NCBI GenBank assembly: GCA_964512075.1
Contig: CAZEID010000006.1
Span: 1,024 to 65,023, forward strand
Length of the DNA: 64,000 bases
Reading direction: 5' to 3'
Source of the DNA: an uncultured Candidatus Saccharibacteria bacterium
Lineage (GTDB): Bacteria; Patescibacteriota; WWE3; 9FT-COMBO-53-11
Positions 9,789 through 54,027 of this stretch are shown one piece after another; position 1 is the stretch's first letter, and the number at the start of each line of letters is the position of its first letter. The notes beneath the pieces are model-generated. The model saw only the letters and a program-made list of their open reading frames with translations, was not told where the DNA came from and did no database searches. Position numbers and translations under genes: made by a program.

Positions 9789-9865
9789 GGGCGAATAGCT
9801 CAGCCGGTTAGAGCGCTGTCCTGATAAGACAGAGGTCCGTGGTTCGAATCCACGTTCGCCCACCA
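9789..9865 (+). tRNA. tRNA-Ile (anticodon GAT)
   Basis: 77-nt cloverleaf. Acceptor GGGCGAA/TTCGCCC, anticodon loop CTGATAA, T-loop TTCGAAT, encoded CCA. Confidence 0.85.
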
Positions 9866-10028: not shown

Positions 10029-10130
10029 TAGCGTATCTTCCCTCATCTCCTTTTGGCCGGTTATGCCAAAAGGCCTTATCTTCCGCCAAAGAAAGGCGGA
10101 AGAACGGAAGCTACGAAGTAACTCCTTAGA

Positions 10131-11690
<1,560 letters not shown>

Positions 11691-11716
11691 ATAAACGCGA
11701 AGCGTTTATAGCTTGT

Positions 11717-18308: not shown

Positions 18309-20885
18309 TTACAATCTTGCCCGGAGCCGGATCTCCTCCTCCACCTCCGCGGCGGGGCGAGTGTATTTCATCCGAGACTCCTCTTTAATCTGGGCAGCCC
18401 GGCGGGGATCTCGCGCAATGGCTTGAATCTGGGACCAGTCCGTCCGCATCCTAAACGGGATCGAGGGAACCCCATTAATCAACAAGCGGACGTAGGCTTG
18501 CCCGATGGCCGCATTGAGCAAATCCATCCGAGAGAAATCGGGGGAAACCTCGCTCTCAAGAAACTCGGCATCTTCCGCCCCAACTCGGAAAAGAATCTTG
18601 GTTCCCACGTTCCCAAAAACTGCCCGCTTGATATCTTCAGTCAGCTGACCAATAAACTGATTCGCCACAATTAGATTCAGCCGGTATTTCCGGGCCTCGG
18701 ATAGGATTTGGACGAAGTCGGGCGTCGCAAAGTTTTGGAATTCATCCACGTAAAGGTAGAAGTCCGGCCGCTGCTCTTCGGGTATCTCTACCCGCCCCAT
18801 GGCTGCTGTCAAAATCCGCGGCACTAAAATCAGCCCCAAAAAGTTGGAATTTTCCTCCCCAATCCTCCCTTTGGAGAGGTTCACTAATAGAACCTTTCGC
18901 TGATCCATTACCTCCCGGAAGCTGAAGGAGGATTTCCCCTGGCCGATGATGTTGCGCATCAGCTTTTCCGTCACAAACCGGTCGAACTTGGAGACGAAGT
19001 AGCCCAAGGTTTCGCTTTTGTGAAAGTCGGAAGTTTGAGCAAGCTCGTCAGTCCAATATTTCTTCACAATCGGATCCGTAATTAACGGGACCTTGCTAGC
19101 GGCAAAAACCGGGTCGGTCAGCAGGCGGAAAACTTCCACCAAGGTATTTTCCTTCTCGCTCATCGCTGTGAGCATCACATTCCGCACCGCCCGCTCCAAG
19201 CGGGGGCCCAAAATTCCGGTTCGGTTTGGATCATAAAGCTTGTAAAGGAGAGAAATAAAGGAGTTAATTACGAGATGTTTTCCTTCTTCTGTCTCCGCTT
19301 CCAAGATGTTGAGAGCCGGCGGCCGTTCTAAATCACCGGGATCGAAGTAAATTACATCGGCCTGGCGTTCTTTCGGGATCATTTGGAGAAGATCCTCCAC
19401 CGCGTCGCCATGCGGATCTACGAAACAAAGCCCCTCACCGGCGACGATATCTTGATAAGCCATAAACTTGAGCAACTCGCTTTTACCGGTTCCGGTCTGA
19501 CCGATGATGTAAGTATGCCGCCGGCGATCGTTTCGCTGCAGATAGACCGGTACTTCTATCCCCCGCGAGGACGCTCGACCAAGGTAGAGACCCGCAGTCG
19601 GCAGATCTAAGGGAATCGCCCCGGTTTTGGCCCCCAACCACTTAATGTTCGGCGTTGCTACCCACTTGTTGGGCAGGTGGAAAAGCGTCGCCAGCTCCTC
19701 GCTCGAAAAGACCGTCCAGTGCATAAAGCGCGGAACATGCCGGTAGAGAAAATCCACCATAAAGGACTTTTTAAAGAGGGCTTTCTTAACAGCAAAACCC
19801 GCTAGCTGTGGCGCGGAGAATTGGCTCAAACTGGTCACAATGCTGGAGAGTTGGAGATCGGCCGAAGCTTTCGTCGGCGCGACGGTCACAATCCTGATCA
19901 GCGCATAAAATCCGGGTTTATTGACCTTCCGGGCAATCGCTTCCTCAGTTTCCTTTCCCAGAACAACCCGACTCTCTCCCTCCGGCTTTCTCTCCATTTC
20001 TTTCGCCTTTAAAATGAAGGCCTGGCCTTGGCGCTGCCAGCTGGCGTCAGCCGGAGAGACCACAATTTGGATCACCGCCGCCTCGCCTTGGGCCAGCTTG
20101 GTTAAAGCGGAGGTAATGGTGTTAAGGGAATCGGTCTCTTCGCCCAAATCTACGTACGTCCTAATTGGGTAATACTTTGGTCCAGTTGTTACAAGCTGAT
20201 TAAAAGAAACGTACCCTTCTTTTTGAAAAATGTCATACTCCTGAACTTCCTTAATCTCGGCACTGGGATAAGCCGCGTGCAGCTGTTTCTCCACTAAAGA
20301 ACAAACCTCGCGAGGAGAAACTACCACAAAATGGATATGCTCGTGGTCCGCTATAATTTCGAAACTTAAATTAATCTGGGGGACCCCCAAGGACAGCGGT
20401 CCTCCACCCCGGTGGAGCCCCGCAAGGGAAGTGAAAAATTGCTCGGCGGCACCCGCCCGAATCTCGCTGTCCCGCGGCACCAACACCTCCAAAAAGACTA
20501 AATCGGGTCCGCCTTTCCGAGAAGCAACGGGGCCCGCCAGTTTCTGCCACTGCCGCTTCCACCATTCCCCCAACCAGCGGAAGGCACTCGTAATCGGAAG
20601 CTTCTGAGATTCCTTTACCTCCTGAACAGTTAAGGGTGGGGCAACCAGCCCCGGCTCAATCGGGGAACCGGGAAGAGAAGGCGGAGTTGGCGAGACTGGG
20701 GACGGCGAAGCTGGAAGGGAGGGCGGAGGAACGGAAGAGGAAGGTAAGGCCGCGGGACTCTCAGGAGCGGTTTCGGCCTCCTTGCCTACCTCCGACGGGG
20801 AGGGCTTTTCGGGAGCAGGAAAACCGGGGATTTTTTCGGGAGTACCGGAGATTGGCTCTGTTTCCACACCTCTATCCTGCCACAA
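18309..20885 (-). CDS. FtsK/HerA/VirD4-superfamily P-loop ATPase (type IV coupling-protein-like) with a Pro/Ser-rich N-terminal region
   Basis: 858 aa. N-terminal ~90 aa is low-complexity PAPEKPSPSE...PPSLPGSP. Walker A IIGQTGTGKSE, Walker B LYVDEFQNF, then LNLIVANQ. No TM helices are evident. Confidence 0.6.
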   Translation of the reverse strand: MWQDRGVETEPISGTPEKIPGFPAPEKPSPSEVGKEAETAPESPAALPSSSVPPPSLPASPSPVSPTPPSLPGSPIEPGLVAPPLTVQEVKESQKLPITSAFRWLGEWWKRQWQKLAGPVASRKGGPDLVFLEVLVPRDSEIRAGAAEQFFTSLAGLHRGGGPLSLGVPQINLSFEIIADHEHIHFVVVSPREVCSLVEKQLHAAYPSAEIKEVQEYDIFQKEGYVSFNQLVTTGPKYYPIRTYVDLGEETDSLNTITSALTKLAQGEAAVIQIVVSPADASWQRQGQAFILKAKEMERKPEGESRVVLGKETEEAIARKVNKPGFYALIRIVTVAPTKASADLQLSSIVTSLSQFSAPQLAGFAVKKALFKKSFMVDFLYRHVPRFMHWTVFSSEELATLFHLPNKWVATPNIKWLGAKTGAIPLDLPTAGLYLGRASSRGIEVPVYLQRNDRRRHTYIIGQTGTGKSELLKFMAYQDIVAGEGLCFVDPHGDAVEDLLQMIPKERQADVIYFDPGDLERPPALNILEAETEEGKHLVINSFISLLYKLYDPNRTGILGPRLERAVRNVMLTAMSEKENTLVEVFRLLTDPVFAASKVPLITDPIVKKYWTDELAQTSDFHKSETLGYFVSKFDRFVTEKLMRNIIGQGKSSFSFREVMDQRKVLLVNLSKGRIGEENSNFLGLILVPRILTAAMGRVEIPEEQRPDFYLYVDEFQNFATPDFVQILSEARKYRLNLIVANQFIGQLTEDIKRAVFGNVGTKILFRVGAEDAEFLESEVSPDFSRMDLLNAAIGQAYVRLLINGVPSIPFRMRTDWSQIQAIARDPRRAAQIKEESRMKYTRPAAEVEEEIRLRARL

Positions 20886-21732: not shown

Positions 21733-22764
21733 TCAGGCGGAAGGTGCTAACTCCTTGTTAACCAGATTCACCGGAGGTTTTCCTGCCAATACATCTAACA
21801 CCGCTTGGGCCGCCAGTACCGCCATTGCGCCCCGGGCCTCGATCGTCGCCGAAGCAGTGTGGGGCGTCAGCACGACATTGGGAAGCTCCGCTAATCCCGG
21901 CGCCAGGTTGGGCTCATTCTCGTAAACGTCCAGCGCGGCTCCTTTAATCGTGCCCGCCTTGAGGGCTCCCACCAACGCGGCTTCATCCACAATTGGCCCC
22001 CGCGAAGTATTGACAAGATAAGCCGTCGGTTTCATTAGTTTTAGCCGGTCAGCATTGATTAAGTGGCGGGTCTCTGGAAGGAGCGGAACATGGATTGAAA
22101 CGAAGTCCGCCTCCTTCAGCAGAGCGTCTAAGCCCCGAAACTCTGCCCCAAACTCCTGCTCAAACTCGGTGGAGGGTTGAATATCATAGTAGAGTACCTG
22201 CATCCCCATCCCTTTGGAAGCGATCTCGGCCACCCGGGAGCCGATTCGGCCCAGCCCGACTACTCCCAAAACCTTTCCCTGGAGCTCGGTTCCCAGCAGC
22301 AGCTCCGGCTCCCAGCCCCGATACTTCCCTTGGCGGGTGAACTGATCGGATTCCGGAATCCGGCGGGCAATTGCCAAAAGCAGGGCGAAGGTGTGCTCCG
22401 CCACCGCTTCGGTCAGTACCCCCGGAGTGTTAGAAACGTAGATCTTGCGCTGAGTCGCGGCCGGAACGTCAATGTTGTCGTAGCCGACGGCGTAGTTGGA
22501 GATCAGCTTGAGTTGGGGACCGGCGGCGTCCATCACTTCCCCATCGATCTTGTCGGTCAGGAGGGAGAGGATCGCTTCCGCTCCCTTAACCCGTTCCAGC
22601 AGCACCTCGCGAGGAATCACCCGATCCTCTTCCCAAACCGAAAAATCGGTCCCTTTTAGGAGATCCAAACCAGCCCGGGGAATTTTGCGAGTGACGAAAA
22701 CCTTGGGCATCAGAACTAGAATAACAGAATTACCAGAGCCAGAATAACAGAATTTGGTAGCCAA
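21733..22764 (-). CDS. D-isomer-specific 2-hydroxyacid dehydrogenase (glyoxylate/hydroxypyruvate reductase or glycerate dehydrogenase type)
   Basis: NAD-binding GVVGLGRIGSRVA. Catalytic R...E...H pattern (TPHTAS). Confidence 0.75.
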   Translation of the reverse strand: MATKFCYSGSGNSVILVLMPKVFVTRKIPRAGLDLLKGTDFSVWEEDRVIPREVLLERVKGAEAILSLLTDKIDGEVMDAAGPQLKLISNYAVGYDNIDVPAATQRKIYVSNTPGVLTEAVAEHTFALLLAIARRIPESDQFTRQGKYRGWEPELLLGTELQGKVLGVVGLGRIGSRVAEIASKGMGMQVLYYDIQPSTEFEQEFGAEFRGLDALLKEADFVSIHVPLLPETRHLINADRLKLMKPTAYLVNTSRGPIVDEAALVGALKAGTIKGAALDVYENEPNLAPGLAELPNVVLTPHTASATIEARGAMAVLAAQAVLDVLAGKPPVNLVNKELAPSA

Positions 22765-22800
22765 TCTCTATCGATACCCACATCAAGCCGCATTTTACTG

Positions 22801-22820
22801 TTTTACAGAAAACTGTAAAA
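22801..22820. promoter_or_regulatory. 20-bp palindrome TTTTACAG-AAAA-CTGTAAAA (copy 1), preceded by an extra half-site TTTTACTG
   Basis: Read directly. Downstream of the TrpR/YerC-like gene. Confidence 0.5.
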
Positions 22821-22887
22821 CGGTAGAAACTAACCGAATAATCGATTACAACCTAATAAATCGGGTTAAAATTGGGTTAAAACCAAG

Positions 22888-23298
22888 TCAACGGGAAACG
22901 TCTTTGCGGGTAAAACCGGTGTAGACTTTCTTTTTAAAAACTTTCATTGAGGAGCCGACTTGACGGTAAGTTTTTGATTTTGCCTCACTCTCAACCTTCT
23001 CCTCCCGTTTGTCAATCAACTCAAAACAACGGGGGTGCTGGTCCATACTCTTCTGGACAGAGGAAATTGTACTGTAGCCGACTTTAAGCTCCCGAGCTAG
23101 GTCACTTACTAACTTCCCTTGGGAAAGAAGTTGGGCGATCTTGATCCGGCGGCCAAGCCGCAAACGCTCGTCGGAAGTCAAAATCCCGTTCATAATTTCT
23201 TCCACGTCATAACCGTCCTTAGCCGCCAGAAGCGCCGCTCGAAGTTTATTGAGCGCGTCAAAGATTTCCTCCCTGGAGAGAAACTGATATCGCCGCAT
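22888..23298 (-). CDS. TrpR/YerC/YecD-family DNA-binding protein
   Basis: 136 aa. Trp-repressor-like helix-turn-helix region RLRLGRRIKIAQLLSQGKLVSDLARELKVGYSTISSVQ. Confidence 0.6.
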   Translation of the reverse strand: MRRYQFLSREEIFDALNKLRAALLAAKDGYDVEEIMNGILTSDERLRLGRRIKIAQLLSQGKLVSDLARELKVGYSTISSVQKSMDQHPRCFELIDKREEKVESEAKSKTYRQVGSSMKVFKKKVYTGFTRKDVSR

Positions 23299-23335
23299 TT
23301 GCGCTAATTTTACACCCCCATTTCCAAATTTCCAG

Positions 23336-23355
23336 TTTTACAGAAATCTGTAAAA
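23336..23355. promoter_or_regulatory. 20-bp palindrome TTTTACAG-AAAT-CTGTAAAA (copy 2), in the promoter region of the TrpR/YerC-like gene
   Basis: Read directly. 38 bp upstream of the start codon, in the divergent intergenic region. Confidence 0.5.
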
Positions 23356-23518
23356 CAGTAGAGAATTGCTAAGGAGAAGGGTTTAGAAACCGAAGTAGGT
23401 TAGAATCAAAATCCACCCGAGGGAATTTTGCGGGTCACGAAAACTCTCGCCATCAAGAGCAGAACATCGGATACGGGGTATCAGAGGCAAGCAGATTTCT
23501 AATTGACGAGAATCTTCC

Positions 23519-23546
23519 TTGACTTTACCAAACCTAAACCTATACT
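23519..23546 (+). promoter_or_regulatory. near-consensus sigma70-type promoter TTGACT-16-TATACT
   Basis: Read directly. About 85 nt upstream of the ATG at 23630. Confidence 0.5.
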
Positions 23547-23629
23547 TAGGGTAAGGGCTAATTCAGGAAACAGAAAGGAGAAGAGGATCGCCGCCAAGCC
23601 CAAATCCTCCTGTTCATACGGAGGGAGAG

Positions 23630-23821
23630 ATGCCTCCCAAAGAGTACTGGTACGATTCGCATGGGAACTACCACGAAGATTGGAAGCGGGCGGTCGAGGC
23701 CGAAAGAGCCAACGAAGAGGCGGCCGGCCGGTCAGACTGCCGCGCGGGCTTCGACGAACGCAGTGGCTCCAGTGAGAATGATTCTGACAAGAATGACTCC
23801 AGTAAGAGTAGTGGGAAATGA
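23630..23821 (+). CDS. small acidic Ser/Asp-rich protein (63 aa)
   Basis: Good RBS GGAGGGAGAG before the ATG and a consensus promoter upstream. Low-complexity C-terminus SENDSDKNDSSKSSGK. Confidence 0.4.
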   Translation: MPPKEYWYDSHGNYHEDWKRAVEAERANEEAAGRSDCRAGFDERSGSSENDSDKNDSSKSSGK

Positions 23822-23876
23822 CTCCAGCGTGGGTAAACCGAGTTTTGGTTTACCCTCTTTTATTGTAGTCTGAACA

Positions 23877-24896
23877 GTGGCAATAAAAATGGTCCCCACA
23901 ACTAAAGACCCAGAACTGGAGAGGCTAGGCAGGGCTTATGAAGCTTACTTCGACGTGGCTGATCCAAGGAAGATCGGAGAGATTCGCAGAGATATTTTCT
24001 TCTTCCGCAAACCGTTTTTGGAAAGGGAAAAAGCCTACCTCCAGCATAAAAAAACAATCGGGGAGCTAAAGCCGCTCTACAAAGACCTGGTCAAGGCAAG
24101 AAATAAATACGCCCAATCGAAAGGCCCCTATCGAAACTTCCTCCATTTTGCCCTCAATGATGATGGTGTACCAGAAAAAAGTTTTGAAAAATTCCTTGAA
24201 CAAATCGATTCACTGATAAATAGGATCAACAAAAACCTCCCCAAACCAAAAAACAGCGGACAGTTCTATTCTCCCCTCAACATGCCAGACTTTATCGACG
24301 AGATTAGTAGCAAAAAATACTCGCTACCAGAATATGTCATAAGAAGATTGGGCGAATACTCTCCCGAAATTGGGCAAATGCTCCCAAGGATAAGATTTGA
24401 GGATGCGGATAAAAATCACGGTTTTAACGAGGCTCTTTTCCGGCCCGTTACGGGAACTGTCGTAGTTCGAACTTGGCCAAGCTCCGATCTTCAACACGCA
24501 ATCTCCCTAGCTCACGAAGTAGGACACGCTGTAGCATACCTCCGATTAATAAAGGAAGGGATAGATCCCAAAGACAAACCAAAGTACTGGCACGAAAAGC
24601 AGGCTATCAGAATGGAGTTAACTTTTATTGGAACACTCCCCCAGGATCTGCGAAACGCTGCTATCGGAAACATCCTTTGGCAGTTTACTATTGCTTTGTT
24701 TGAAGTGGAAACATACGCCAAGCCCAATCTAAATTTCGATCGAGTGTTTGCCCAGTCTTTTAACCGCTGTTATAAAGAAGCTCAACAAAAAGAAAATCCA
24801 TTTTATGTAGTAATGGAACCGCTTCTCCGCCGCCCCTGCTCCGCCGTTACGCAAGGAATAGTTCACACCGGGGAACTTTCTCAAGTACTCAATTAA
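23877..24896 (+). CDS. putative zinc metallopeptidase-like protein (HEXXH motif)
   Basis: 339 aa. Contains LAHEVGHAVAY (HEXXH) and a downstream Glu-containing segment. Family is not assignable by eye. Confidence 0.45.
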   Translation: MAIKMVPTTKDPELERLGRAYEAYFDVADPRKIGEIRRDIFFFRKPFLEREKAYLQHKKTIGELKPLYKDLVKARNKYAQSKGPYRNFLHFALNDDGVPEKSFEKFLEQIDSLINRINKNLPKPKNSGQFYSPLNMPDFIDEISSKKYSLPEYVIRRLGEYSPEIGQMLPRIRFEDADKNHGFNEALFRPVTGTVVVRTWPSSDLQHAISLAHEVGHAVAYLRLIKEGIDPKDKPKYWHEKQAIRMELTFIGTLPQDLRNAAIGNILWQFTIALFEVETYAKPNLNFDRVFAQSFNRCYKEAQQKENPFYVVMEPLLRRPCSAVTQGIVHTGELSQVLN

Positions 24897-24940
24897 TCCA
24901 AAAATTTAGCAGACCTTGGGAATCTTGCGGGCCAACTCAA

Positions 24941-40559: not shown

Positions 40560-40660
40560 GGATCCCCCGCGGAAACGATGGCGAAATGATGATCCGTACA
40601 ACCAGATCGCCAACAAACGGTGGGCAAAGTCTTTCCCCCGGAGTAGCAGTCTGTCAACCA

Positions 40661-40685
40661 GCGAGGATTAAACCCCTCGCTTTTT
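40661..40685 (+). terminator. rho-independent terminator
   Basis: GCGAGG-ATTAAACC-CCTCGC-TTTTT. Confidence 0.5.
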
Positions 40686-40809
40686 GTGAAGCAAAACTAA
40701 CCCCGCATTCGGAGGTATTCTGGTGCGGGGCGTATTTTTGATCCCCAGAGTAATCTAGGAAGTCAGGCTGAAGCCAAGTTATCAGACACTGCGGAAGCCA
40801 AAATTACGG

Positions 40810-40829
40810 TTTTACAGAAAACTGTAAAA
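40810..40829. promoter_or_regulatory. 20-bp palindrome TTTTACAG-AAAA-CTGTAAAA (copy 3), followed by an extra half-site CTGTAAC
   Basis: Read directly. About 17.5 kb from the TrpR/YerC-like gene, between a small ORF and rpiB. Confidence 0.5.
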
Positions 40830-40911
40830 CTGTAACTTCCACTGTCGAAATTTGAAATGAAATTAGGGAGGGCAACCCAAAAGAAGTGGAAGGAAGGAGC
40901 AGAAGGAAAAG

Positions 40912-41367
40912 TTAGAGCTGAACTTCCAGATCGGCGATCTTTTGGAGGCGGCGGAGATGGCGCTCCTCGGAGGGGCCGGGGGTTTCGAGCCAGAGTTTAA
41001 TAATCCTTTGGGCCTGCTCTTCCCGGAGATGATCGGCGGGAAGGGAAAGGACGTTGGCCCCGTCGTGCTGGCGGGACTGTCGCACCAACCCCTCGTCATC
41101 AACCCAGATCACCGCCGAACGCACCCCCCGAAACTTATTGGCGACAATATCTACCCCCACCGCCGAACCGCAAAGCAGAATTCCCCGATTCTCGGCCGGA
41201 TTTTCTGCCACCCGCCGGGCCACCTGGGCCGCAAAATCGGGGTAATCATCGGTCGGGTCGTAAACAGCGTTGCCTAGATCCTCGCAGGGCTTCCCCCACT
41301 CCTCCAGCCACTGCTTAATCTTTTCCTTGAGCTCGAAACCCCGATGGTCGGTTCCCAAATAGATCAT
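40912..41367 (-). CDS. rpiB: ribose-5-phosphate isomerase B
   Basis: N-terminus MIYLGTDHRGFELK, RpiB/LacAB fold. Confidence 0.8.
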   Translation of the reverse strand: MIYLGTDHRGFELKEKIKQWLEEWGKPCEDLGNAVYDPTDDYPDFAAQVARRVAENPAENRGILLCGSAVGVDIVANKFRGVRSAVIWVDDEGLVRQSRQHDGANVLSLPADHLREEQAQRIIKLWLETPGPSEERHLRRLQKIADLEVQL

Positions 41368-51857: not shown

Positions 51858-51932
51858 TGGTGGCGACGGGAGGATTCGAACCTCCGACCTAAGCTTTATG
51901 AGGGCTCCGCTCTACCCCTGAGCTACGTCGCC
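51858..51932 (-). tRNA. tRNA-Met (anticodon CAT), elongator-like with a G1:C72 pair
   Basis: 75-nt cloverleaf. Acceptor GGCGACG/CGTCGCC, anticodon loop CTCATAA, T-loop TTCGAAT, CCA encoded. Confidence 0.8.
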
Positions 51933-51990
51933 GACAGCCGGGTACCAGATCTACGAAGGCCGATCCTTCCGAAGCTTTGGCGAAGGAGAG

Positions 51991-52065
51991 TGGTTGCGGG
52001 CCCTGGAATTGAACCAGGTCCTCGTGGTTATGGGCCACGCGTGGTAACCGTTCCACCAGCCCGCT
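51991..52065 (-). tRNA. tRNA with anticodon CAT and a mismatched 1:72 position (candidate initiator tRNA; Ile2/lysidine type not excluded)
   Basis: 75-nt cloverleaf. Acceptor AGCGGGC/GCCCGCA with A1xA72, anticodon stem CGTGG/CCACG, loop CCCATAA, T-loop TTCAATT, CCA encoded. Confidence 0.7.
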
Positions 52066-53951: not shown

Positions 53952-54027
53952 TGGTGGGCACCCCTGGATTCGAACCAGGAACCCCCAAGGTATAAGCTTG
54001 GTGCTCTAACCATTAAGCTAGGTGCCC
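53952..54027 (-). tRNA. tRNA-Ile (anticodon TAT)
   Basis: 76-nt cloverleaf. Acceptor GGGCACC/GGTGCCC, anticodon stem CCAAG/CTTGG with loop CTTATAC (UAU), T-loop TTCGAAT, CCA encoded. Confidence 0.75.

What the first reader, a model, noticed from the sequence alone, without database searches (positions are those of the whole stretch)
22796..23360. TrpR/YerC-like regulator with its palindrome TTTTACAG-N4-CTGTAAAA present three times in the window
A perfect inverted repeat of 8-bp half-sites sits 38 bp upstream of the TrpR/YerC-like gene (23336-23355), the classic autoregulatory position. A second copy lies just downstream of the gene (22801-22820), with an extra TTTTACTG half-site. A third copy (40810-40829, plus an extra CTGTAAC) lies 17.5 kb away next to rpiB and a small unknown ORF. 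Three exact occurrences of a 20-bp palindrome in 64 kb are far beyond chance. The copy upstream of the regulator also lies in the divergent region facing the consensus promoter of the small-acidic-protein/HEXXH operon, so that operon is a likely target.
Basis: seen in the sequence. Interest (0 to 1): 0.55.

Follow-up and report, generated by a model that had tools for sequence, protein, structure and literature searches.

The report
TrpR-like regulator bracketed by its operators
A small TrpR-family DNA-binding protein of an uncultivated (Patescibacteria/CPR) bacterium is flanked on both sides by copies of its probable binding site, an arrangement that recurs with lineage-specific site sequences in all ten related genomes examined; it is a real but fairly ordinary self-regulating switch, with one unusual feature in the second site placed right after the gene.

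Summary
TTTTACAG-N4-CTGTAAAA occurs exactly three times (22801, 23336, 40810), with no degenerate copies, and 0 of 100 shuffles reach three. Each copy is really a ~30-bp array of four half-sites, TACNG-N3-TACAG-N4-CTGTA-N3-CNGTA.

The gene at 22888-23298(-) is a Pfam Trp_repressor member. It falls below the NCBIfam cut-offs for both YerC/HisR and TrpR and carries a conserved C-terminal extension. It belongs to a small CPR-specific clade.

Ten orthologous loci (54-79% identity) were examined. In every one a pseudo-palindrome lies 15-50 nt before the ATG, and again 0-60 nt after the stop codon. The site sequence differs between lineages but matches within a locus (0-3 mismatches per 20-mer in nine loci, 4 in the tenth; shuffles 5 or more). 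This strongly supports operator function and autoregulation.

In the window's lineage the downstream site overlaps a promoter-like TTTACA-16-TAAAAT in front of a conserved D-2-hydroxyacid dehydrogenase gene.

The third site lies in a ~180-nt window-specific insert between the rpiB stop and its terminator. It is absent from three syntenic relatives, so it is not a conserved regulon member.

The proposed divergent target (small acidic protein/HEXXH) is not conserved and its promoter is ~155 nt away, so that claim is not supported. The effector is unknown.

The parts
22888..23298 (-). Regulator gene, 136 aa. It has a TrpR-family helix-turn-helix core (about residues 15-95) plus a clade-specific C-terminal helix and beta-hairpin ending in ...YTGFxRKDVxR.
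   Evidence: Pfam PF01371 scores 38.8 bits against a cut-off of 27. NCBIfam YerC/YecD and TrpR are both below cut-off. The PDB profile search finds 3g1c, 3frw and 3kor at E~1e-9 and E. coli TrpR at E~5e-4. The AF2 model has pLDDT 92. Foldseek gives probability 0.96-0.98 to TrpR and 3frw. Family alignment is A3.
23331..23360 (.). Site B, the upstream operator: TCCAG-TTT-TACAG-AAAT-CTGTA-AAA-CAGTA. Its centre lies 47 nt before the ATG.
   Evidence: In the window/L001/L003 alignment this block and the promoter that follows it are the only conserved part of the upstream region.
23307..23334 (-). Promoter-like site of the regulator, TGGAAA-16-TAAAAT. The -35 overlaps the outer half-site of site B. 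The -10 ends 8 nt before the ATG with no Shine-Dalgarno sequence, so the mRNA is probably leaderless.
   Evidence: Scan. The element is conserved as TGGAAA/TGGAAT-16-TACAAT/TAAAAT-N8-ATG in L001 and L003.
22796..22825 (.). Site A, the downstream operator: TACTG-TTT-TACAG-AAAA-CTGTA-AAA-CGGTA. It lies about 62 nt after the regulator's stop codon.
   Evidence: It is the best-conserved block of the regulator-dehydrogenase spacer in window, L001, L002 and L003.
22792..22819 (-). Promoter-like site TTTACA-16-TAAAAT (10 of 12 consensus positions) lying inside site A and pointing at the dehydrogenase gene.
   Evidence: Equivalent elements are ATTACA-16-TAACTT in L001 and TGGAAA-16-TAATAT in L003 (read from the sequence).
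21733..22710 (-). D-isomer-specific 2-hydroxyacid dehydrogenase gene, the probable co-regulated target in this lineage.
   Evidence: Pfam 2-Hacid_dh_C at 1.3e-63. It is syntenic directly after the regulator in L001, L002 and L003 at 82-93% identity.
40805..40834 (.). Site C, the third copy: TACGG-TTT-TACAG-AAAA-CTGTA-AAA-CTGTA. It is the most symmetric copy, with an extended hairpin over 40801-40838 and an RNA folding energy of -22 kcal/mol.
   Evidence: On the rpiB strand the simple scan flags it as terminator-like.
40732..40911 (.). Window-specific insert of about 180 nt between the rpiB stop codon and its conserved terminator hairpin (40701-40731). It carries site C.
   Evidence: In L139, L140 and L141 the rpiB stop is followed directly by that hairpin or by different sequence, and no regulator-type palindrome is present. 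The insert has no other copy in the window.

Best explanation
The three palindromes are DNA operators of the TrpR-family protein encoded at 22888-23298(-).

Site structure. Each site is a ~30-bp array of four 5-bp half-sites spaced 8 bp apart within each arm, TACNG-N3-TACAG-N4-CTGTA-N3-CNGTA. That is enough for two dimers bound in tandem, the geometry described for E. coli TrpR (GNACT half-sites with 8-bp spacing).

Site B overlaps the -35 of the regulator's own, probably leaderless, promoter. The protein would therefore repress its own synthesis.

Site A lies just after the stop codon and inside a promoter-like TTTACA-16-TAAAAT. It would place the adjacent D-2-hydroxyacid dehydrogenase gene under the same control.

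The 'operator - gene - operator' bracket is a conserved property of this CPR-specific clade.

Site C is a recent, lineage-specific extra copy in the rpiB 3' region. Its output is unknown; it could be a short RNA, an rpiB antisense transcript, or a termination aid.

Shown: the sites, their non-randomness, their conserved positions, the match of site sequence within a locus and its change between lineages, and family membership.

Inferred: that this protein binds them, the direction of regulation (repression), and the leaderless start.

Unknown: the effector.
For: Non-randomness:
- Three exact copies and no degenerate ones; 0 of 100 shuffles reach three.

Comparative evidence:
- All 10 orthologous loci have a pseudo-palindrome both 15-50 nt upstream of the ATG and 0-60 nt after the stop. 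The loci are window, L001/L002, L003, L004, L005, L135, L136, L137, L138 and L142.
- Sites differ between lineages. Examples: TTTTCCAG-TTTT-CTGGAAAA in L001, TAATCCAG-TTTT-CTGGATTA in L003, ATCCGTGTACTAGTACACGGAT in L138, and TAAACCGTAGTCTAGTCCACGGTCT twice in L136.
- Within a locus the two sites match. The best 20-mer has 0-3 mismatches (mean 1.8). Across 270 shuffles the minimum is 5 and the mean 6.8; cross-locus pairs average 5.6.
- L001 differs from the window by the same base change in both half-sites (A to C paired with T to G), which keeps the dyad.
- Loci whose recognition helix reads T-V-N (L004, L136) share CTAG-centred sites.

Promoter context:
- Phylogenetic footprints show that the site plus the promoter are the only conserved upstream and intergenic blocks.
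- Promoter-like hexamers overlap both sites.

Known behaviour of the family:
- TrpR-family proteins bind 20-bp palindromes with lineage-specific consensus and are often autoregulated (PMC9413887).

Family membership:
-.
Against: - No binding or expression data exist for any member of this clade.
- In L004, L137, L138 and L142 the downstream gene is convergent. There the downstream site cannot be a promoter operator for that gene, so a single 'represses the next gene' explanation does not cover the whole clade.
- Site B lies upstream of, and only partly over, the -35. That position would also fit activation.
- Site C is not conserved and has no obvious target.
- The whole-genome regulon could not be defined. 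The genome-contig scan was swamped by chance hits.
Confidence: 0.7

Rival explanations
1. The palindromes act as RNA or DNA hairpins that bracket the mRNA, as intrinsic or bidirectional terminators or as stabilising stem-loops. On this reading they are not protein operators.
For: - The window sites fold well as RNA. Energies are -11 to -22 kcal/mol with z-scores of -3.6 to -6.7.
- On the rpiB strand, site C is flagged terminator-like, a hairpin followed by CGTAATTTTG.
- The L138 downstream site is a perfect hairpin followed by TTTTT.
- In four loci the downstream site lies between convergent genes, where bidirectional terminators are usual.
Against: - Downstream sites in L136, L135 and L005 do not fold better than shuffles (z -0.2 to -1.2), yet they match their upstream partners in sequence.
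- Sites A and B have no T-run.
- Hairpin function does not require the upstream and downstream copies to share sequence.
- If the conserved -35/-10 is real, the upstream copy lies outside the transcript.
Confidence: 0.1
2. The site-gene-site unit is the remnant of a small mobile element or cassette. The HTH protein would bind terminal repeats, as IS1 InsA does, and site C would be a solo end or MITE-like insertion. Regulation of host genes would be incidental.
For: - Sites flank the gene at both ends whatever the neighbouring genes are.
- In L138 the gene sits antisense inside a glycosyltransferase operon.
- Site C lies in a ~180-nt insert absent from relatives.
- There are secondary Pfam hits to transposase-type HTH families HTH_23, HTH_28 and HTH_38.
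Against: - No transposase or recombinase, no target-site duplication, and no similarity beyond ~30 bp between copies.
- Synteny is stable within sub-lineages. Window/L001/L003 keep the regulator next to the dehydrogenase; L005/L135 keep DnaB, the regulator and peptidase M29 together.
- There is a single copy per locus, and no phage homologues.
- Trp_repressor is the best Pfam hit.
Confidence: 0.08
3. The motif is recognised by some other factor, or is simply a bidirectional promoter element (TTTACA on both strands with TAAnnT 16 nt away). Its association with this gene would then be coincidental.
For: - The palindrome carries -35-like TTTACA on both strands, with -10-like hexamers at 16 nt. 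These are TAAAAT at site A; TAATTT and TAACTT at site C; and TAACTT at the L134 site.
- An almost identical 36-bp site occurs in another organism with no regulator gene within 6.4 kb (L134).
Against: - Orthologous sites such as L138 (CCGTGTACTAGTACACGG) and L136 have no -35-like hexamer, yet they keep dyad symmetry and position.
- Site sequence changes in step with the adjacent regulator's lineage.
- No other promoter in the 64-kb window carries the motif.
Confidence: 0.07

Closest known systems
HisR (B. subtilis YerC; structures 3g1c, 3frw, 3kor), the histidine repressor of the TrpR family (PMC9413887)
   Same: - These are the nearest solved relatives by sequence profile (E~1e-9).
- Both are small all-helical HTH proteins.
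- Both use ~20-bp palindromic operators with lineage-specific consensus.
- Autoregulation through a site before the gene is frequent in both.
   Different: - The window protein is below the NCBIfam YerC/YecD cut-off (27 against 42.2 bits).
- It is 136 aa rather than under 100 aa, with a conserved C-terminal helix and beta-hairpin.
- The operator differs from cacTTTA-N6-TAAAgtg.
- No his genes lie next to any site.
- It has a second site directly after the stop codon. PMC9413887 mentions only candidate sites preceding hisR.
E. coli TrpR and its operators (1tro; TGTACTnGTnnACnAgTACA, GNACT half-sites 8 bp apart)
   Same: - The fold of the core matches (Foldseek probability 0.96-0.98, TM 0.55-0.59 on the target, rmsd 2.5-3.5 A).
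- Both autoregulate.
- Both use half-site arrays on an 8-bp lattice that allow tandem dimers.
- The orthologue in L138 even uses a GTACTAGTAC core.
   Different: - The window protein scores only 21.5 bits against the 67-bit TrpR equivalog cut-off.
- CPR genomes lack the trp regulon context.
- The half-site sequence here is TACAG/CTGTA.
- The effector is unknown.
Repressors with auxiliary operators that flank or lie inside the regulated unit (lac O1/O2/O3, gal OE/OI, deo)
   Same: Two like operators about 440-535 bp apart around one transcription unit could cooperate by looping (own knowledge).
   Different: Here the bracketed unit is the regulator's own gene. Spacing is not kept to a helical phase (442-535 bp across loci). 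Looping by a TrpR-type dimer has not been shown.

Membership tests
TrpR family (Pfam PF01371, Trp_repressor) | Sequence matches the family HMM above the curated gathering score | tested here: met
   38.8 bits against a cut-off of 27, covering residues 16-92. All 36 homologues carry PF01371.
TrpR family (Pfam PF01371, Trp_repressor) | All-helical TrpR fold with the HTH in helices D and E | tested here: met
   The AF2 model has pLDDT 92. The highest-probability Foldseek hits are 2oz9, 1tro and 3frw (0.96-0.98; TM on target 0.55-0.68), although Foldseek E-values are poor for this small monomer model.
TrpR family (Pfam PF01371, Trp_repressor) | Palindromic ~20-bp operator built of half-sites on an 8-bp lattice, often before its own gene | tested here: met
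   the positional conservation is. The family property is taken from PMC9413887.
TrpR family (Pfam PF01371, Trp_repressor) | Intertwined homodimer with amino-acid co-repressor-dependent DNA binding | not testable with these tools
   Only a monomer model was made and no ligand data exist.
YerC/YecD = HisR subfamily (NCBIfam TIGR02531) | Score above the curated cut-off | tested here: not met
   27.0 bits against a cut-off of 42.2.
YerC/YecD = HisR subfamily (NCBIfam TIGR02531) | Operator consensus cacTTTA-N6-TAAAgtg and a regulon of his biosynthesis or transport genes | tested here: not met
   The window site is TTTTACAG-N4-CTGTAAAA. Neighbouring genes are a 2-hydroxyacid dehydrogenase and rpiB, and no his genes lie next to any site. 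The consensus is from PMC9413887.
TrpR proper (NCBIfam TIGR01321) | Score above the curated cut-off | tested here: not met
   21.5 bits against a cut-off of 67.25.
Intrinsic (Rho-independent) terminator | G+C-rich hairpin followed by a T-run | tested here: not met
   Sites A and B are not flagged, being A+T-rich stems with no T-run. Only site C on the minus strand passes the loose scan. Several orthologous downstream sites do not fold.
Insertion sequence / MITE | Terminal inverted repeats with a target-site duplication, a transposase, and multiple copies | tested here: not met
   Copies share no similarity beyond 30 bp, and the site C insert has no other copy in the window. No transposase lies adjacent.

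The most novel reading that the evidence does not exclude
The conserved operator-gene-operator bracket is a functional unit in its own right. A CPR-specific TrpR-like protein with a novel C-terminal beta-hairpin domain would clamp both ends of its own gene, by looping or by a two-sided transcriptional roadblock. In very compact genomes this would insulate the gene from neighbouring transcription, or gate that transcription, whichever way the neighbours point. L138 is an example, where the gene sits antisense inside a glycosyltransferase operon. Alternatively, the unit descends from a minimal IS-like element.
Probability: 0.2. Interest if true: 0.55.

Novelty: new variant of a known kind. Interest (0 to 1): 0.4.

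Why it matters
Almost nothing is known experimentally about transcription control in Patescibacteria/CPR bacteria, which are mostly uncultivated and have very few regulators.

This work gives a concrete protein-site pair that can be tested in vitro. Ten natural variant pairs are available for specificity-swap experiments. There is also a clear conserved architecture, with sites at both ends of the regulator gene, that known TrpR/HisR biology does not explain.

If the bracket works by looping or roadblock, it would be a compact way of insulating genes in streamlined genomes. If not, this is simply one more autoregulated TrpR-family repressor, here controlling a 2-hydroxyacid dehydrogenase.

Tried and rejected
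1. Genome-wide regulon scan. Only the L001 contig was relevant, and tblastn found no regulator next to the others.

2. Metagenome scan with the 22-mer. It returned nine loci. Eight are chance palindromes without the outer half-sites. Only L134 has the full 36-bp site.

3. Known RNA families at site C and at the L134 site. Only sub-threshold noise was found.

4. A conserved rpiB-linked site. It is absent from L139, L140 and L141.

5. A conserved divergent target. The small 63-aa and HEXXH 339-aa proteins have no homologue in the L001 or L003 loci, whereas orf446, the dehydrogenase and DsbA are syntenic.

6. A longer repeat or MITE around the sites. There is none.

7. Phage origin. tblastn found no hit.

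8. A literature search for CPR TrpR-like regulators found nothing relevant.

9. A functional theme among downstream genes was considered. They are a 2-hydroxyacid dehydrogenase, a glyoxalase-fold protein, a cupin and an M29 aminopeptidase. A methylglyoxal/D-lactate theme is conceivable for two of them, but it is too weak to claim.

Full report
**1. Observation**

The 20-bp palindrome TTTTACAG-N4-CTGTAAAA is present exactly at 22801-22820, 23336-23355 and 40810-40829. Allowing up to three mismatches adds no further copy. Dinucleotide shuffles expect 0.27 matches, and none of 100 reaches three. All six CTGTAAAA octamers of the window belong to these sites. The relaxed core TACAG-N4-CTGTA with one mismatch finds only the same three.

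Aligning the three copies shows that similarity extends to about 30 bp and no further. The shared unit is TACnG-TTT-TACAG-AAAw-CTGTA-AAA-CnGTA. That is four 5-bp half-sites, 8 bp apart within each arm, arranged as a dyad.

**2. The gene**

ORF 22888-23298(-) encodes 136 aa and matches Pfam Trp_repressor above the gathering score (38.8 against 27 bits). It falls below the NCBIfam cut-offs for both YerC/YecD (27 against 42.2) and TrpR (21.5 against 67.25).

A profile of 36 homologues finds the YerC/HisR-type structures 3g1c, 3frw and 3kor at E~1e-9 and E. coli TrpR at ~5e-4. An AlphaFold model (pLDDT 92) has six helices followed by a C-terminal beta-hairpin. Its highest-probability Foldseek hits are TrpR and 3frw (0.96-0.98, TM on target 0.55-0.68).

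The last ~40 residues (...REEKVE...YTGFxRKDVxR) are conserved across the clade and lie beyond the ~88-residue TrpR and YerC family models. The clade is small. In 1.84 billion representative proteins only 16 clusters score at or below 1e-30 and 54 at or below 1e-10.

Named sources are Patescibacteria and Woesebacteria MAGs. The window's RpiB is closest to candidate division Kazan and WWE3. The window also carries a 16S rRNA gene.

**3. Comparative test of the operator idea**

I fetched nine further orthologous loci at 54-79% protein identity. In every one a pseudo-palindrome lies 15-50 nt upstream of the ATG, and a matching copy lies 0-60 nt after the stop codon. In L003 the downstream copy overlaps the stop codon.

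The sequences are lineage-specific:
- L001/L002: TTTTCCAG-TTTT-CTGGAAAA. Compared with the window the same position changed in both half-sites, which keeps the dyad.
- L003: TAATCCAG-TTTT-CTGGATTA.
- L005: CAGTAGTACAG-TCGA-CTGTACTACTG.
- L135: CTACAGTATTACAGTGTACTGTAGTACTGTAG.
- L004: ACAGTAGACTAGTTTACTGTAA.
- L136: TAAACCGTAGTCTAGTCCACGGTCT, identical upstream and downstream.
- L137: CCCGTAGACTGTACTACNG.
- L138: ATCCGTGTACTAGTACACGGAT, whose GTACTAGTAC core resembles the E. coli trp operator consensus quoted in PMC9413887.

The best 20-mer shared by the upstream and downstream regions of the same locus has 0-3 mismatches (mean 1.8). Across 270 shuffles the minimum is 5 and the mean 6.8. Pairs from different loci average 5.6, and only the close relatives window, L001 and L003 cross-match. 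The tenth locus, L142, has 4 mismatches but a clear TACAG array starting right at the stop codon.

Loci whose recognition helix reads T-V-N (L004, L136) share CTAG-centred sites. Conserved position, changing sequence and retained dyad symmetry are what is expected of an operator co-evolving with the adjacent regulator. TrpR-family proteins are already known to use 20-bp palindromes with lineage-specific consensus and to be autoregulated in many genomes (PMC9413887).

**4. Relation to promoters**

Upstream of the regulator, an alignment of window, L001 and L003 is conserved only from the site to the ATG. The conserved order is site, then TGGAAA/T, 16 nt, TAAAAT/TACAAT, 8 nt, ATG (the scan finds TGGAAA-16-TAAAAT at 23334-23307).

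The outer half-site overlaps the -35, so occupancy should block RNA polymerase. That step is an inference. The -10 ends 8 nt before the ATG and no Shine-Dalgarno sequence intervenes, so the mRNA is probably leaderless, which is also an inference. In L004 the site lies between a TTGAAC -35 and a TAATAT -10, and in L137 and L138 it lies 15-17 nt from the ATG. These are classic repressor positions.

Site A lies inside TTTACA-16-TAAAAT (10 of 12 consensus positions) on the minus strand, about 80 nt before the ATG (22710) of a D-2-hydroxyacid dehydrogenase gene (Pfam 1e-63). That gene follows the regulator in L001, L002 and L003 too (82-93% identity). The site is the best-conserved block of the spacer.

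**5. The downstream site is not explained by 'next gene' alone**

The gene after the regulator differs between lineages:
- Co-directional: M29 peptidase in L005 and L135; a glyoxalase-fold protein in L136.
- Convergent: cupin in L004; TerC in L137; a glycosyltransferase in L138; NUDIX in L142.

In L138 the regulator sits antisense inside a glycosyltransferase operon. In L004 a third copy at position 1532 lies in front of the convergent orf86-cupin pair.

A pure RNA-hairpin or terminator role is unlikely. The downstream sites of L136, L135 and L005 fold no better than shuffles (z -0.2 to -1.2), while the window sites do fold. Sites A and B also lack T-runs.

My reading is that the clade keeps an operator at each end of its gene. 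Where a co-directional gene follows, the second operator doubles as that gene's operator. Cooperative binding (looping over 442-535 bp) or roadblocking are possible additional roles. They are not shown.

**6. Site C**

In the window, rpiB (40912-41367, -) is followed on the same strand by rpe, a LOG-family gene and others. This synteny is kept in L139 (Kazan GW2011_GWB1_52_7), L140 and L141. L141 comes from the same assembly (GCA_040900215.1) as L001.

None of these loci has a regulator-type palindrome in the rpiB-rpe spacer. In L139 and L140 the rpiB stop is followed directly by the hairpin that lies at 40701-40731 in the window.

Site C therefore sits in a ~180-nt window-specific insert between the rpiB stop and its terminator. 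The insert has no other copy in the window and no Rfam match.

Promoter-like hexamers flank site C on both strands: TTTACA-16-TAATTT on the minus strand and TTTACA-16-TAACTT on the plus strand, read from the sequence. It might drive a ~95-nt RNA that ends at the rpiB terminator, or an rpiB antisense transcript. On the rpiB strand the simple scan also calls it terminator-like.

A nearly identical 36-bp site occurs in one metagenomic contig of another organism, between ybeY and pth, with no regulator within 6.4 kb (L134). Orphan sites therefore exist elsewhere. Site C is a real copy of the motif but not a conserved regulon member.

**7. The divergent operon**

The strong promoter TTGACT-16-TATACT (23519-23546) is about 155 nt from site B. 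The 63-aa and HEXXH 339-aa proteins it would express have no homologues in the L001 or L003 loci. By contrast, orf446, the dehydrogenase and DsbA on either side are syntenic there.

This is a variable insert, and nothing supports it as a target. A weak plus-strand promoter-like match inside site B (TTTACA-18-GAGAAT) leaves a small possibility open.

**8. Comparison with known systems, and verdict**

The system works like an autoregulated TrpR/HisR-type repressor. By Pfam and by fold it is a member of the TrpR family. It is not a member of the HisR/YerC or TrpR equivalogs, because score, operator consensus and regulon all fail.

Three features are new:
- a CPR-restricted clade;
- a conserved C-terminal extension;
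- the universal operator-gene-operator bracket.

I found no paper on such regulators in CPR. The effector is unknown. The case is solid but moderately interesting: a new variant of a known kind, useful mainly as a ready-made, testable protein-site pair in a group of bacteria whose regulation is essentially unstudied.

Noticed in passing
window 10130-11694 (-), 9789-9865 (+): The 16S rRNA gene has no 23S or 5S anywhere in the 64-kb window. The nearby tRNA-Ile(GAT) is on the opposite strand. The rRNA genes therefore appear to be unlinked.
   Followed up: no
window 53952-54027 (-): A tRNA-Ile with anticodon UAU (tat) is present alongside two tRNA-Met(CAT) genes at 51858-52065.
   Followed up: no
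window 23307-23312 and ATG 23298; L001 and L003 equivalents: The -10 box ends 8 nt before the start codon and there is no Shine-Dalgarno sequence. This is conserved in three genomes and suggests a leaderless mRNA for the regulator.
   Followed up: partly
window 23400-24900 versus L001 7000-9900 and L003 1400-7400: The segment between the conserved orf446 and the regulator is a variable island. The window has a small acidic 63-aa protein and a HEXXH 339-aa protein. L001 and L003 have unrelated small ORFs, a methyltransferase and EamA.
   Followed up: partly
L141 6450-6700 (same genome as L001): The rpiB 3' spacer seems to be an insertion hot spot. This relative carries a different insert there, a 55-aa AbrB/MazE-like ORF. 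That label comes from reading its sequence by eye and was not tested. The ORF is preceded by GTTATAAC repeats.
   Followed up: no
L134 4008-4043: An almost identical 36-bp four-half-site element (94% identical to site C) lies in an unrelated metagenomic contig. It is in an ~800-nt gene-poor spacer between ybeY and pth, with no regulator gene in the 6.4 kb available.
   Followed up: partly
L138 9379-10938: The regulator orthologue and its two sites sit antisense between two glycosyltransferase genes of a long minus-strand operon. The downstream site overlaps the stop codon of the convergent gene.
   Followed up: no
window 40660-40681 and equivalents in L139, L140 and L141: The hairpin AGCGAGG...CCTCGCT followed by T-rich sequence is conserved in four genomes. 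It lies after a small ORF that runs opposite to rpiB and rpe: orf130 in the window, with 48% identity to an 83-aa ORF in L139. It is probably that ORF's terminator.
   Followed up: no
window 18309-20885 (-): An 858-aa ORF with a Pro/Ser-rich N-terminus lies next to the DsbA-like gene. By eye it has a P-loop (GQTGTGKS). It was not analysed.
   Followed up: no
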